The position numbers were made by a program. A stretch of 64,000 bases of DNA, taken from NCBI RefSeq assembly GCF_003334405.1, contig NZ_QOWM01000015.1; one strand, 5' to 3'. How positions within the stretch are numbered: position 1 is the first letter of the stretch; each line of letters starts with the position of its first letter. Source of the stretch: Escherichia coli. Lineage in GTDB: Bacteria; Pseudomonadota; Gammaproteobacteria; Enterobacterales; Enterobacteriaceae. Below are positions 32,101 through 35,100 of this stretch, one piece after another.

Positions 32101-35100
32101 TCGTGAACTGTTCTTTTATAGATTGTAGTTTTAACGAATTAAGTGGTAGGGAAGATATTTATTTTTTGGGATGTGAATGTGACAATGATGCTATTAATAA
32201 AAAATCTGTCGAGATAAACAGTGAAAATGATCACGATATTACAGATTGTGATATTTACATCTTAGAGAAGTTCTGTCCCAGAGGGAGTGTTAGCTATCAT
32301 AAGCATCGGCCTATAAAAGGCTTATGTTCTAACAACAATCAATTTCAGTTAAGTGAAATACTCCATTCTTTAGATAAATTGAGGAAAGACGGTCTTTTAC
32401 TTACGCCAGACAAGCGTTCGTTCCTTGAACTTAACATGGCAAGAATATCAGAGATTAAAGCAATTCTTGGGAGGAATTTCTGATGTATAACGGGAATGAA
32501 TTGCGAATTATTCAAAGTTTGCAAAAAGATATAGAAGATGAACTTAATCGTATTGGATTACTTTATCGTTTTTTTTCGAGGACAAAATCAGAAAGCTCAA
32601 TAATTAAGAAATATGAAAAAGAGCCTAATAAATACTCAGAGGATGGTAAAAAAATTCAAGACTTATTTGGGGTTAGGATAATATTATATTTTCCTGATGA
32701 TTTATTTATTGCTCAAAAAACACTGGAGAAATTATTCGAAATTGAATCTAAAACCGTAGACGAAACCACGGCTAATCTCTTTGCGGCAACTCGATGCAAT
32801 TACGTCTTTAAGTTACCAGAAGTATTATCAAATGATAGTGTCTTATTAAAGAAATATTCTTATATTGATACTACTTTTGAAGTCCAATTTAGAACTATTT
32901 TATCTGAAGGATGGCATGAAGTTGAGCATGATCTACGCTATAAGTGCAAAGAGGATTGGGTTGAGCATAATGACCTTAGTCGCGCGCTGAATGGAATTTA
33001 CGCCTCTTTGGAAACATCTGATTGGGGAATAATGAAGTTATTTGAGGATTTAGCATATAGAAATTATAAGTCAAGCGCATGGTCCGCTATGCTAAGAAAT
33101 AAATTAAGATTGAGAATGGACGATAAGCTTGATGAAAAGATAATTTCAATAATTAATGAGAAAGAGCTTGGTAAAAAGTTTTATAGAATTGACAGAGATC
33201 GTTTGTTATCGTTAATGTTAGATTATAATATTGATATACCAATTAATCTTAATAATATAATTTACCTTTGTAATTATTTTTTCATAAAATCTACGGAGCT
33301 TCAGGATATAGCCCCTGCTTTAATAATGAAAAAGCTTACAGATGCTGATGAAAAATTCAATAAAAATACTATTTTAGCATCTAAATAATAACTATCTCCG
33401 GCTATTAAGTAGGCCTTGTATTTTAGGCCTACTTAAAAAGTTTCATTATGTGAAGTGATGATGATAGCAAATCTGATATCTTTATGGTTGGATGCGAGAA
33501 AATATTTTTATCCCGACACAACAACTGGTAATGATAGAAAATTTAAACCCAAAAATGCTACAGTAGCCTCAGCTCACAAACGGAGTATAAAGTGGCGGTT
33601 ACTCTTTAGTGGGAATACTGTAGATAGTTGATAAACTGGGCTGGATTTTCTTTTCTAACCGAAGGGAAGAAAAGCAAGGGGAACCCAAAGAAACAAGCGC
33701 AGCGGCTTCGTAGGGTTAGCCCTTGCTTCTTTTATAATTGGCATTATTCATTCAAGAACAATAGGATCTTCGCTTGTACAAGCGAAGCTATAATAAAAAA
33801 TCAATTAATTATTTTAAAAGTATTAAGCAAGAGCCTATTGACATTCGTAAAATAAAAGTTATTTTTAATGTATGCCATAAATAAAAAGTTTTATGTCATA
33901 TGTATCCTGCACTATGTGCAGTTAATGTGCCACTTGTCCCATATATGGGAATATTGGAAAGGTTACTTTGTTTTGAAGTAGCCTTTCGTCCTTCAATATT
34001 CACGATTACTTATTGCTATTACCAAGTCCAGTCGAATCGAAGAACATCTTTTATCTGAAACGACTCCTAATACCAGGTTGAAGCCACAATATCTCTCGCA
34101 TAAGTAGACCAAAGAAAAATTATGATATTAACTATGTGATTTTTTTTAGCGTTAAGTTGAATAATTATATACTGGAGAGTTTTCTGTACACTACCAATTG
34201 CTGGTTCATCTGTTCTGCCGCTGATGTTTCTGACTAATCTCCCGGTGACACAGAACTGTCCCTCTCTACCAGCCTTTATTCGACTCAATGTCCGGCTGCT
34301 GATACGCAGTTATCCCTTCGTATCAATGACTGACTCTTAAACGCAATGCTTTGGTTGCTGGCGTATCTGACAGCTTCTTCGGCGTGAAGGTCGTTGTGTA
34401 AGTATACTTCTTGGTTTATTTAGGCTATATAAAACCATGACTATGACTGGCTGTTTTCAGTAAGAGTCTTATCATCCAAAGAATTTATTCTAGAAATTCT
34501 TTTTAACTCATTAAGATAATCAACCTCGTTTTCTAAGAACCAATGAAGAACTTTAGAGTTGCCAAGTAATTTATTAATATATGACTGGATTATAACGAAT
34601 TTCAACATATCTGAACCATACTCGGTTTGAAGTTTTTTCGTTTCTTCCGAAGTTGTTGCCATTTCTTGTTCCAGACGAAGTATGGTTTTTTTTATGTCCT
34701 TTTTATAGGGAGTGTTTTTCCCTTTATTTACTATCATCGATGACGGTGTTGCATCCAAGATGCTCATTGCAAATTTTTTACTATAATTATCAAAATTAAT
34801 CATTGTACCGACTGCTTCAATTTGACGAATTGGCTTCATTTTCCTCAAAACGTCAAATGTAGCCTTAGGTATAGGTTTATCAGAAAGTTTCGCAATTACA
34901 CTTGGATCTATGCCGTTCATCACATTAGCTTTATCTTTTATGGCATCAACAGATATGCCCAAAGCAGCACTAAGTTTTTCAATTGATACTTTTGCCAGAG
35001 ACTTAATTATCATTCTATGTTCTTCAACTACATTTATATGATTCACTTGTTTGTTAGGAGTGAAAGCATCATCTATGCTCGAAAGTATACATGGAGCTTT

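What the first reader, a model, noticed from the sequence alone, without database searches (positions are those of the whole stretch)
33389..34440. 1-kb non-coding gap between convergent modules with several perfect palindromes and a possible 57-aa ORF
Between the 3' ends of the RSH-like gene and the ParB-like gene there is no ORF of 60 aa or more that looks real, but there are strong palindromes: TAAGTAGGCC-N10-GGCCTACTTA (33415-33444), CTTCGCTTG-TACA-AGCGAAG next to a TATAAT (33768-33793), CTGCAC-TAT-GTGCAG (33907-33921), and AAGCAAGGG...CCCTTGCTT (about 33672-33730). A small ORF (33458-33631, 57 aa) sits just downstream of the RSH-like gene. This could hold an sRNA, a small antitoxin for the RSH-like protein, or recombinase target sites.
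Basis: seen in the sequence. Interest (0 to 1): 0.35.

Follow-up and report, generated by a model that had tools for sequence, protein, structure and literature searches.

The report
Likely transfer origin in mobilizable island
The 1-kb "empty" gap is a patchwork junction inside a mobilizable E. coli genomic island. Its core is an unannotated, strongly conserved 80-base double hairpin that is most likely the island's origin of conjugative transfer. Next to it lie a candidate small RNA and a dead insertion-sequence fragment, and the proposed 57-aa antitoxin gene is not real.

Summary
The palindromes are real and exceed chance, but the gap is a mosaic, not one feature.

- **33389-33439:** 3' hairpin of the RelA/SpoT-like cassette, kept by compensatory changes in Citrobacter and Serratia.
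- **33440-33647:** filler holding the 57-aa ORF. The ORF has no homologue among 1.84 billion protein representatives and is absent next to RSH homologues elsewhere.
- **33648-33728:** a discrete two-hairpin element. Across 22 variants, 95.5% of cells are paired and 12 of 28 pairs show compensatory change. It always lies upstream of, and in one fixed orientation to, a NikA-like accessory plus MOBP relaxase operon. It sits about 100 nt away in the simplest islands and is separated by defence cargo elsewhere. Best reading: the island's oriT.
- **33738-33794:** promoter-like site plus a 20-bp perfect palindrome. Its motif GCTTCGCTTG clusters beside the element, suggesting an operator.
- **33838-33997:** conserved sigma-70 promoter and four covarying hairpins. 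Indels break every ORF, so this is a candidate ~130-nt sRNA.
- **34214-34402:** internal remnant of an ISSen4-like IS3 element.

Nothing in the gap matches Rfam. The oriT function is inferred, not shown. Overall: a new member of a known kind, of moderate interest.

The parts
33405..33436 (+). 3' hairpin of the 704-aa + RelA/SpoT-like operon (12-bp stem, 8-nt loop), with no U-tract after it. Probably a terminator or an mRNA 3'-end stabiliser.
   Evidence: Searches give the arms. One search shows a hairpin at the same place after the RSH homologues of Citrobacter (GTAGGTCTTT-TACT-AAAGACCTAC) and Serratia (GGCCTTT-TATTA-AAAGGCC). The sequences differ but pairing is kept. In Citrobacter L056, the only locus where similarity runs past the gene, it ends at window 33439.
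33458..33631 (+). 57-aa ORF inside a ~208-nt filler (33440-33647) that is specific to this island variant. Most likely not a gene.
   Evidence: phmmer against 1.84e9 representatives finds only itself. No tblastn match beside RSH homologues. No PADLOC or NCBIfam family, and only a PHROG hit at E=0.15. The stretch occurs in only 76-78 of 5426 E. coli genomes, all at least 99% identical.
33648..33728 (+). Conserved two-hairpin cis element, the putative oriT.

- Hairpin a (33650-33674): CTTTTCT-AA-CC-GAA-GG-GA-AGAAAAG.
- Long hairpin b/c (33674-33726): GCAAGGG-G-AACCC-AAA-GAAAC-A-AGC-GCA-GCG-GCTTC-GTA-GGGTT-AG-CCCTTGC.
- Triloops are mostly G-N-A.
- 3' block GTTAGCCCTTGCT, invariant in the 18 closer variants and slightly varied in the three most distant.
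   Evidence: Both borders are homology breakpoints. Across 22 distinct variants, 95.5% of cells are paired and 12 of 28 pairs have compensatory change; 0 of 500 shuffles reach this, and slid controls give 1-5. RNAalifold predicts the same fold independently. The element always has one orientation, upstream of the accessory + relaxase operon. It lies ~100 nt upstream in L012, L016, L045, L050, L052 and L007.
33738..33794 (+). Rightward promoter-like site TTGGCA-18-TAGGAT (33738-33767). It is directly followed by the perfect 20-bp palindrome CTTCGCTTGTACAAGCGAAG (33768-33787) and TATAAT (33789-33794). Putative operator over a transcription start.
   Evidence: The site is conserved in the ygbA-side islands L010 and L013 with one central change. 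The motif GCTTCGCTTG (at most 1 mismatch) occurs 3 times within 33694-33788. It occurs 5 times within 226 nt beside the element in L014, which 0 of 200 shuffles reach.
33838..33865 (+). Conserved sigma-70-type promoter: TTGACA, 16-nt spacer, TATTTT.
   Evidence: scores it 10 of 12. TTGACAT is invariant and the -10 reads TATTTT, TATTTA or TATTAA in three lineages that are 73-97% identical.
33866..33997 (+). Structured non-coding module, a candidate ~130-nt sRNA.

- P1: 33870-33901.
- P2: 33907-33921.
- P3: 33937-33950.
- P4: 33957-33987.
   Evidence: The + strand folds at -38.4 kcal/mol (z -5.2); the - strand at -30.5 (z -3.9). 97.4% of cells are paired. Compensatory changes occur in P2 (C:G to U:A), P3 (U:A to C:G) and P4. 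Every wobble is G.U on the + strand. Indels of 1, 2 and 4 nt break the 37-aa and 52-aa ORFs. No Rfam match. The module is present in 480 of 5426 E. coli genomes and annotated in none.
33998..34175 (.). Less conserved tail, shared at ~80% identity with the ygbA-side islands. Homology ends just after ATACTG (34169-34174). Function unknown.
   Evidence: IS1 insertions truncate the region at 34061, 34097 and 34199 in other strains.
34214..34402 (+). Internal remnant of an IS3-family element. It is ISSen4-like and corresponds to the orfA/orfB junction region of the transposase gene.
   Evidence: blastn matches 34259-34390 at 71.6% to ISSen4 transposase genes. tblastx extends the match to 34214-34402. 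PGAP calls an IS3 transposase pseudogene at window 34256-34367 in several genomes.
34393..34440 (-). 3' flank of the distal ParB-like gene. This is the only part of the gap that travels with the recombinase-ParB-ParB module into Enterobacter, Citrobacter and a divergent E. coli island.

Best explanation
**Context (shown).** The window is an E. coli chromosome carrying an integrative mobilizable island at ssrA. The gap is the junction where several independently inherited modules meet.

**The key piece.** The ~80-nt element at 33648-33728 is two adjacent hairpins ending in the conserved block GTTAGCCCTTGCT.

**Proposed function (inferred).**
- It is the island's origin of transfer. The NikA-like accessory protein (26667-27074) and the MobA/VirD2-type relaxase (25441-26670) would assemble on it.
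- The relaxase would nick the + strand in or just 3' of the conserved block, and a helper plasmid's mating channel would export that strand.
- The DNA to the right would then enter the recipient first and the relaxase operon last.

**Why the borders are sharp.** If the element is the one cis site mobilization cannot lose, it would survive while everything around it is exchanged. That would explain why defence cargo sits on either side of it in different islands, with homology breaking at both borders.

**The rest of the gap.**
- The 20-bp palindrome just to the right is most likely an operator for the same DNA-binding protein. It shares the GCTTCGCTTG motif with the hairpin and lies over a promoter-like site.
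- 33838-33997 is a separate module: a conserved promoter driving a four-hairpin RNA of about 130 nt with an undefined 3' end.
- What remains is the RSH operon's 3' hairpin, a filler with a spurious ORF, and a decayed IS3 fragment.
For: **Context.** tmRNA lies at 39455-39817. The integrase, serine recombinase and two ParB-like genes lie between it and the gap.

**Mosaic structure.** In 5426 E. coli genomes, 33389-33647 occurs only with the RSH cargo. 33648-34440 occurs in roughly 500 with other cargo. 34393-34440 follows the ParB genes into other genera.

**Partnership with the relaxase operon.**
- The relaxase matches PF03432 at 3.5e-22.
- The accessory protein is weakly NikA-like: 6 of 7 homologues at E<=0.1, best 3.5e-3.
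- The element lies upstream of that operon in one fixed orientation in every locus that holds both.
- It is about 100 nt from the accessory start codon in L012, L016, L045, L050, L052 and Citrobacter L007. Where I read the sequence (L012, L016, L007), a TTGACA-16-TATAAA/TATAAC/TATAAG promoter lies between them (also 59).
- The relaxases are only 44-59% identical, yet the element keeps its architecture and 3' block.

**Structure under selection.** 12 of 28 pairs have compensatory change and 95.5% of cells are paired; 0 of 500 shuffles reach this. RNAalifold gives the same fold. The most distant copies (L007, L067, L068) replace whole stem sequences but keep the two hairpins, and two of the three keep a G-N-A triloop.

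**Not an RNA gene.** Both flanks differ between islands right up to the hairpins, so there is no conserved promoter for either strand.

**Divergent promoters.** Rightward TTGACA-type hexamers lie next to the element in many variants.

**Background from the literature.** A 2026 preprint reports that defence systems in integrative elements cluster near oriT. It defines the leading region as the side of oriT opposite the relaxase genes (10.64898/2026.01.13.699239).
Against: - No nicking or transfer was tested.
- The element has no match to the nick core I recall for MOBP relaxases (YATCCTG|Y). The nearest resemblance, CCCTTG|CT, is my own reading.
- The closest plasmid relaxases (IncQ2, 43% identity) have no similar sequence upstream. 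No plasmid in PLSDB holds the region at blastn sensitivity. So there is no bridge to a proven oriT.
- No conserved single-stranded stretch lies 3' of the inverted repeat, unlike classical MOBP and MOBQ oriTs. The conserved block is partly inside the stem.
- The strand preference is weak: 12 G.T cells against 6 A.C cells.
- In the window the element is 6.6 kb from its relaxase operon.
- Several islands keep the element but show no relaxase in the flanks I retrieved (L003, L014, L023).
Confidence: 0.6

Rival explanations
1. The 80-nt element works as RNA. It could be a small RNA, a processed 3' end, or an insulating terminator for cargo transcripts, rather than a DNA site.
For: Covarying hairpins are equally expected for RNA. 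G.U-type wobbles are twice as common as A.C on the + strand. In the window the second hairpin is followed by TTCTTTT, and the terminator scan flags 33710-33726. The RSH operon reads into it.
Against: No promoter is conserved on either side, because the flanks change at the element's borders. The T-run is not conserved: the 3' flank reads GCTAATAAAT, GCTTATAATCC and GCTCAATGCC in other variants. Neighbouring cargo is transcribed toward it in some islands and away from it in others. No Rfam family matches. Its only constant partner is the relaxase operon, which lies on the other strand and is transcribed away from it.
Confidence: 0.13
2. The element is a recombination site at which cargo cassettes are exchanged. 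The enzyme could be the island's serine recombinase, its tyrosine integrase, or the relaxase itself acting as a site-specific recombinase.
For: Homology between islands breaks exactly at both borders of the element (33647/8 and ~33728). Different defence cargo sits on each side: RSH cassette, type I R-M, ABC-three-component, TrlF, SIR2, HerA/DUF4297. A folded single-strand site at a cargo boundary recalls integron attC sites.
Against: Each genome usually has only one copy (median 1, maximum 2), not one per cassette. Many islands with the element lack the serine recombinase and ParB genes (L012, L014, L016). Sharp borders are also what you expect if only the essential cis site is conserved. No crossover-type core repeat is visible at the borders.
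Confidence: 0.1
3. One reading: the 57-aa ORF encodes a small antitoxin that neutralises the RelA/SpoT-like protein.
For: The ORF lies 70 nt downstream of the RSH gene on the same strand. Some toxic small alarmone synthetases have adjacent small antitoxins (general knowledge).
Against: It has no homologue anywhere. It is absent beside RSH homologues at 72-85% identity in four other genera, where the conserved unit is the ~701-aa + RSH pair. A 12-bp hairpin separates it from the RSH gene. No clear ribosome-binding site precedes it.
Confidence: 0.03
4. For 33838-33997 only: the hairpins act as DNA rather than as an sRNA. They could be a single-strand initiation or priming site, or a single-strand promoter, on the strand that enters the recipient first. 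Alternatively they are palindromic protein-binding sites.
For: Under the oriT model this stretch lies on the leading side, and the strand that folds better (+) is the one predicted to be transferred. The hairpins include perfect palindromes (CCCATATATGGG; CTGCAC-TAT-GTGCAG).
Against: A conventional double-strand promoter with an invariant TTGACAT is conserved just upstream on the same strand. The pairing that would place the -35 and -10 hexamers inside a hairpin is not kept in the L014/L023 lineage. The asymmetric U.G pair in P4 becomes C:G in that lineage, which fits folding better than a symmetric protein site.
Confidence: 0.2

Closest known systems
oriT regions of MOBP-type mobilizable elements with a NikA/TraJ/MobC-like accessory protein (R64 oriT-nikAB, RP4 oriT-traJ/traI, IncQ2 mob regions)
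   Same: The element lies immediately upstream of an accessory-then-relaxase operon, next to that operon's promoter, with a second promoter facing the other way. It has conserved inverted repeats and a short highly conserved block at its 3' side. It is kept even when the surrounding genes are replaced.
   Different: There is no sequence similarity to those oriTs or to any PLSDB plasmid. The recalled YATCCTG nick core is absent. The conserved block is partly base-paired instead of lying single-stranded about 8 nt beyond the repeat. There are two hairpins, most with G-N-A triloops. The element is chromosomal, and cargo is often inserted between it and the relaxase operon.
Integrative mobilizable elements of Pseudomonadota with defence cargo (PIMEs, 10.64898/2026.01.12.698999; 'iOriT' and IME islands, 10.64898/2026.01.13.699239)
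   Same: Both are chromosomal islands with an integrase, mobilization genes, a large accessory region rich in defence systems, and defence genes close to oriT.
   Different: PIMEs are defined by alpA, a replicase and trbJ/trbL, and have an IncP-like oriT with the IncP nick site. None of these appears in what I examined of the island here: the ORFs and RefSeq annotation from about window 23500 to ssrA. This island has a different backbone of P4-type integrase, optional serine recombinase plus two ParB-like genes, and a NikA-like protein plus relaxase.
Island-encoded enterobacterial sRNAs (the kind catalogued in Rfam)
   Same: 33838-33997 has its own conserved sigma-70 promoter, about 130 nt of stable covarying hairpins, no conserved ORF, and an island location.
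   Different: It matches no Rfam family even at E<=10. It has no U-tract terminator, so its 3' end is undefined. Only three sequence lineages are known. Expression has not been shown.
IS3-family insertion sequences (ISSen4)
   Same: 34214-34402 is 71.6% identical in DNA (53-79% in translated segments) to an internal part of the ISSen4 transposase gene.
   Different: Only about 190 nt survive, with no terminal inverted repeats, no start or end of the gene, and a broken frame. It is a dead fragment.

Membership tests
Origin of transfer (oriT) of a MOBP-type relaxase | Physically and evolutionarily linked to a relaxase and accessory-protein operon, typically just upstream of it | tested here: met
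   One fixed orientation upstream of the operon in every locus holding both. About 100 nt away in six loci, and 1.8-6.6 kb away where cargo intervenes.
Origin of transfer (oriT) of a MOBP-type relaxase | Conserved inverted repeat(s) maintained by selection | tested here: met
   12 of 28 pairs have compensatory change and 95.5% of cells are paired; 0 of 500 shuffles reach this. RNAalifold gives the same fold independently.
Origin of transfer (oriT) of a MOBP-type relaxase | Nick-region core matching the family consensus (recalled from memory as YATCCTG|Y), single-stranded, a few nt 3' of the repeat | tested here: not met
   There is no ATCCTG in 33640-33740 on either strand. The 3' flank beyond CTTGCT is not conserved. 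The only conserved block, GTTAGCCCTTGCT, overlaps the stem.
Origin of transfer (oriT) of a MOBP-type relaxase | Strand- and site-specific nicking by the relaxase, and cis-dependence of mobilization | not testable with these tools
   Needs mobilization assays and nick mapping.
Origin of transfer (oriT) of a MOBP-type relaxase | Sequence similarity to a characterised oriT | tested here: not met
   No blastn match in 72,556 PLSDB plasmids. The covariance model finds nothing upstream of the nearest plasmid relaxase, IncQ2 pAerXIII. No literature hit for the core sequence. oriTDB could not be searched.
Known RNA families (Rfam 15) | Covariance-model match at or near the gathering score | tested here: not met
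   No family reaches gathering score in the gap. At E<=10, only five weak matches to unrelated families (eukaryotic, viral or cyanobacterial), all far below their gathering scores.
Independent sRNA gene (for 33838-33997) | Own conserved promoter, conserved structure, and no conserved ORF | tested here: met
   TTGACAT and the -10 hexamer are conserved in three lineages. Covariation is seen in P2-P4. Frame-breaking indels occur in all candidate ORFs.
Independent sRNA gene (for 33838-33997) | Intrinsic terminator (hairpin plus U-tract) and detected transcript | tested here: inconclusive
   P4 is a 12-bp hairpin but is followed by GUCCUUCAAUAUU, with no U-tract. No expression data are available.
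Antitoxin of a toxic small alarmone synthetase (toxSAS) module | A small gene conserved next to the synthetase across homologous loci | tested here: not met
   The ORF is absent in four homologous loci and has no homologue in 1.84e9 representatives. The conserved partner is the upstream ~701-aa protein.
Intrinsic terminator (for hairpin 33405-33436) | G+C-rich stem followed by a U-tract | tested here: inconclusive
   The stem is perfect (12 bp) and conserved in position, but it is followed by AAAAAG, not a T-run. The scan did not flag it.
IS3-family insertion sequence | Complete orfA/orfB transposase and terminal inverted repeats | tested here: not met
   Only an internal ~190-nt fragment is similar. 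PGAP marks it 'missing N-terminus and C-terminus'.
Integron-like attC cassette site | One folded site per cassette, in arrays, with an IntI integrase | tested here: not met
   One copy per genome as a rule. The integrase is P4-type with an arm-binding domain.
Single-strand promoter or initiation signal of conjugative leading regions (Frpo/ssi type) | -35 and -10 hexamers formed inside a conserved hairpin of the transferred strand | tested here: not met
   The pairing that would enclose the hexamers in the window (33838-33900) is not preserved in L014 or L023.

The most novel reading that the evidence does not exclude
The 80-nt double hairpin would be more than a transfer origin. It would be the pivot of a cargo-exchange platform, in which the relaxase, acting on the folded single strand, joins oriT copies from different islands. 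Defence cassettes would then be swapped precisely at the element's two borders. That would make this island family a relaxase-driven counterpart of an integron.
Probability: 0.1. Interest if true: 0.75.

Novelty: new member of a known kind. Interest (0 to 1): 0.42.

Why it matters
**How common it is.** About one E. coli genome in nine carries part of this gap: 614 of 5426 complete genomes have some part, about 610 have the 80-nt element, and 480 have the hairpin module. No RefSeq record I examined annotates either feature.

**What a confirmed oriT would give.**
- It would explain how a widespread family of defence-carrying islands moves. These islands sit at ssrA, yicC and next to ygbA.
- It would allow helper plasmids to be identified.
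- It would provide a covariance model for finding related islands, including ones that have lost their relaxase.

**The other points.**
- The sharp borders, with variable defence cargo on either side, make the element a useful anchor for mining new defence systems.
- The promoter-plus-hairpins module is a testable new sRNA candidate. In one island lineage it abuts the integrase 3' end.
- The work also removes a tempting but wrong annotation, the small antitoxin.

Tried and rejected
- **Rfam.** Searched at gathering score over the whole window and at E<=10 over the gap. Nothing relevant.
- **tRNA/tmRNA scan.** Nothing in the gap.
- **Antitoxin idea.** Rejected.
- **Protein-family scans of gap ORFs.** The 57-aa ORF was scanned against PADLOC, NCBIfam and PHROGs; the 75-, 73- and 52-aa ORFs against PHROGs only. 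Nothing.
- **Genome-contig scan with the ParB-like protein.** Found only two close relatives. They were still useful: they showed that homology stops at 34393, and L007 later gave the most distant element copy.
- **blastn of 33620-34160 against plasmids.** No match.
- **Nearest plasmid relaxase loci.** OX345050.1 is really an island fragment labelled as a plasmid. The IncQ2 pAerXIII mob upstream region shows no similarity to the element.
- **Literature.** A search for the core sequence and for ssrA-island relaxases found nothing specific. The PIME family has a different backbone and an IncP-type oriT.
- **Frpo-like single-strand promoter for 33838-33900.** The pairing is not conserved.
- **Type I toxin reading of the 37-aa ORF.** The frame is broken in relatives.
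- **Serine-recombinase or ParB site for the element.** Many carriers lack those genes.
- **PDB profile search with the accessory protein.** No significant hit.
- **ColE1-like nick site.** ATACTG at 34169-34174, where homology with the ygbA-side islands ends, looked like one. I found no adjacent inverted repeat and leave it as an unexplained coincidence.
- **Metagenome scan.** Not run. The loci already in hand answered the linkage question.
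Full report
**Setting.**
- Rfam and ARAGORN place a tmRNA gene at 39455-39817, a Phe leader, RyfD and a tRNA in the window. This is an Escherichia-type chromosome.
- megablast finds the gap in E. coli chromosomes only. Some part is present in 614 of 5426 complete genomes, and the whole gap in 76-78 at 99% identity or more.
- RefSeq annotation of identical loci gives this order: ssrA, P4-type integrase (38059-39432), large serine recombinase (36220-37782), two ParB-like genes (35334-36230 and 34441-35337), the gap, the RelA/SpoT-like gene (32483-33388) and its 704-aa partner (30369-32483).
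- Further left lie a relaxase (25441-26670) and a 135-aa protein (26667-27074).
- The region is therefore an integrative mobilizable island at ssrA.

**Checking the observation.**
- All four palindromes and the ORF are present.
Its arms are 33405-33416 and 33425-33436.
- The gap holds 10 perfect inverted repeats with arms of at least 6 nt, against 3.8 +/- 1.8 in dinucleotide shuffles. Two have arms of at least 10 nt, against 0.01 expected.

**The gap is a mosaic.** Spread-sampled BLAST hits show nested breakpoints.
- 33389-33647 occurs only with the RSH cargo.
- 33648-34440 occurs at ~96.5% identity in roughly 500 genomes whose neighbouring cargo is different, for example a type I R-M system.
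- IS1 insertions cut the region at 34061, 34097 and 34199 in other strains, including the E. coli B derivative BLR(DE3).
- In Enterobacter, Citrobacter and a divergent E. coli island, homology to the ParB module stops at 34390-34393.
- 34259-34390 is 71.6% identical to ISSen4 (IS3 family) transposase genes. tblastx extends this to 34214-34402, an internal piece around the orfA/orfB junction. PGAP annotates it as a transposase pseudogene in some genomes.

**The RSH-proximal part.**
- The RSH-like protein has many homologues.
- In Citrobacter, Serratia, Pectobacterium and Pseudescherichia it is always paired with an overlapping upstream ~701-aa protein (Pfam NA-iREase2). The pair sits in unrelated surroundings, and no small gene is called just downstream.
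- DNA similarity to the window runs past the gene only in the Citrobacter locus (L056), and there it ends at ~33439.
- A hairpin sits just after the gene in both Citrobacter and Serratia, with different sequences that still pair. It is best read as the operon's 3' hairpin, although it lacks a U-tract.
- The 57-aa ORF has no tblastn match in those loci. It has no relative other than itself among 1.84 billion cluster representatives. I conclude it is not a gene, and that the antitoxin idea fails.

**The 80-nt element (33648-33728): a discrete module.**
- A distant BLAST search showed that this stretch occurs on its own, at 73-93% identity, in other islands.
- Alignment shows a block with sharp borders on both sides.
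- It folds into two adjacent hairpins.
- The apical loops are mostly G-N-A triloops. GC-GNA-GC is, from memory, an unusually stable DNA mini-hairpin.
- The block GTTAGCCCTTGCT is invariant in the 18 closer variants and slightly varied in the three most distant.

**The 80-nt element: covariation.**
- On a MAFFT alignment of 18 variants, 95% of cells pair and 7 pairs show compensatory change; 0 of 500 shuffles reach this.
- On a model-based alignment of 22 variants, 12 of 28 pairs show compensatory change, against 4.2 +/- 1.3 in shuffles and 1-5 in slid controls.
- RNAalifold predicts the same structure independently.
- The most distant copies replace whole stems and still keep the architecture. 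These are Citrobacter L007 and the viral-collection contigs L067 and L068.

**What the element travels with.**
- Wherever a locus holds both, the element lies upstream of the accessory-protein plus relaxase operon, always in the same relative orientation.
- In L012 (O55:H7), L016, L045, L050, L052 and L007 it is about 100 nt from the accessory gene's start. In L012, L016 and L007, where I read the sequence, a good sigma-70 promoter for that operon lies between them.
- Elsewhere, 1.8-6.6 kb of cargo separates them. This applies to the window, L010, L013, L015, L035 and L044.
- The relaxase is a MobA/VirD2-type enzyme (PF03432, 3.5e-22). Its nearest plasmid relatives are IncQ2 MOBP relaxases at 43% identity.
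- The accessory protein gives weak but consistent NikA-like hits.
- Neither flank of the element is conserved, so no promoter could make it an independent RNA gene.
- Rightward TTGACA hexamers often lie just to its right, so the element sits between divergent promoters.
- This is the classical anatomy of an origin of transfer, and that is my best explanation.

**What remains unshown for the oriT reading.**
- Nicking and mobilization have not been tested.
- The element shows no similarity to any characterised oriT or to any plasmid.
- It lacks the MOBP nick core as I remember it.
- The strand signal is only 2:1 in favour of the + strand.

**Operator-like palindrome.**
- Immediately right of the element lies TTGGCA-18-TAGGAT (33738-33767), followed at once by the perfect 20-bp palindrome and a TATAAT.
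- Its half-site GCTTCGCTTG recurs inside hairpin b.
- In the L014 lineage the motif occurs five times within 226 nt beside the element, which 0 of 200 shuffles reach.
- I read these as binding sites for one DNA-binding protein, most simply the accessory protein. This is an inference.

**Promoter plus four hairpins (33838-33997): structure.**
- This stretch is present in 480 E. coli genomes and annotated in none.
- It exists in three lineages: the window type, the ygbA-side type (88-89%), and a 73% type that abuts the integrase 3' end in L014 and L023.
- TTGACAT and a -10 hexamer at 16-nt spacing are conserved.
- Hairpins P2, P3 and P4 each carry a compensatory change, and every wobble is G.U on the + strand.
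- The + strand RNA fold has z = -5.2, against -3.9 for the - strand.
- Indels of 1, 2 and 4 nt break the 37-aa and 52-aa ORFs.

**Promoter plus four hairpins: reading.**
- A second covariance model found no further copies in the loci held. A pattern scan of viral contigs found no new variants.
- I regard this as a candidate sRNA of about 130 nt. Its 3' end is undefined because P4 has no U-tract.
- A role as structured leading-strand DNA is a weaker alternative.

**Comparison with known systems.**
- The island differs from the recently described PIME family, which has alpA, a replicase, trbJ/trbL and an IncP-type oriT.
- It fits the general picture that defence genes in integrative mobilizable elements cluster next to oriT.
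- I file the element as a probable, uncharacterised oriT: a new member of a known kind. Membership by sequence or nick-site consensus was tested and not met; membership by position, linkage and conserved repeats was met.

**Verdict.**
- The gap is neither empty nor a single feature.
- Its most interesting content is an unannotated, selection-maintained cis element that probably makes a common family of E. coli defence islands mobilizable, plus one candidate sRNA.
- Interest is moderate. An oriT upstream of a relaxase operon is expected in principle. This one is new in sequence and unusual in form, and variable cargo on both sides frames it sharply.

Noticed in passing
window 30369-33388: The 704-aa P-loop protein and the 301-aa RelA/SpoT-like protein overlap by one base and form a two-gene cassette. 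The same pair, with an NA-iREase2 domain in the large protein, is found in Citrobacter, Serratia, Pectobacterium and Pseudescherichia, inserted in unrelated contexts. RSH homologues also occur in Vibrio and Pseudomonas, but I did not check their neighbours. PADLOC gives only a weak PDC-S33 hit, so this looks like an uncharacterised defence-type module.
   Followed up: partly
window 34441-37782: A large serine recombinase followed by two overlapping ParB-like genes forms a conserved trio. It sits next to the ssrA integrase in about 11% of E. coli genomes and also occurs in Enterobacter vonholyi, Citrobacter sp. and a second E. coli island type (L008). Its role is unknown. Possibilities include maintenance of the excised island or a second recombination system.
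   Followed up: no
loci L012, L015, L016, L011, L052, L003 (both sides of the element): The slots on either side of the 80-nt element hold a changing set of defence genes: ABC-three-component systems, a TrlF-family ATPase, a SIR2 protein, HerA + DUF4297, type I R-M and His-Xaa-Ser systems. They also hold several unannotated ORFs. The element could serve as an anchor for mining new systems.
   Followed up: partly
window 34169-34174: Homology with the ygbA-side islands (L010, L013) ends right after ATACTG, which resembles nick cores of ColE1- and RP4-type oriTs as I recall them. I found no adjacent inverted repeat. Unexplained, and possibly coincidence.
   Followed up: partly
L014 5130-5320: In the island lineage without the ParB module, a ~40-nt unit (GCTTCGCTTGYATTGATTTTAAAGCTTCTCTTGCAG) is repeated twice, about 104 nt apart, between the element and the integrase. 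A third, imperfect palindromic copy follows. The arrangement is iteron-like.
   Followed up: partly
L051 (E. coli 266917_2), about 240 nt left of the element: An ISEcp1 / blaCTX-M-15 / IS1 unit has inserted where the accessory and relaxase genes normally lie. It leaves an orphan copy of the element next to a resistance gene.
   Followed up: no
L057 (Serratia marcescens), 100-210 nt downstream of the RSH homologue: A long (TTTCAA)n hexanucleotide tandem repeat follows the cassette's 3' hairpin.
   Followed up: no
window 11160-11235: ARAGORN calls this tRNA-Met (CAT). The tRNA at the corresponding island-distal position in another E. coli genome (L009) is annotated tRNA-Ile, so this is probably ileY (tRNA-Ile2 with a modified CAU anticodon). 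It would mark the far side of the ssrA island region.
   Followed up: no
PLSDB record OX345050.1 (L054): This 3.6-kb linear record is labelled a Salmonella plasmid. It carries a relaxase, an accessory gene and a 315-aa gene in the same order and at the same spacing as the window's island. It is probably a chromosomal island fragment rather than a plasmid.
   Followed up: partly
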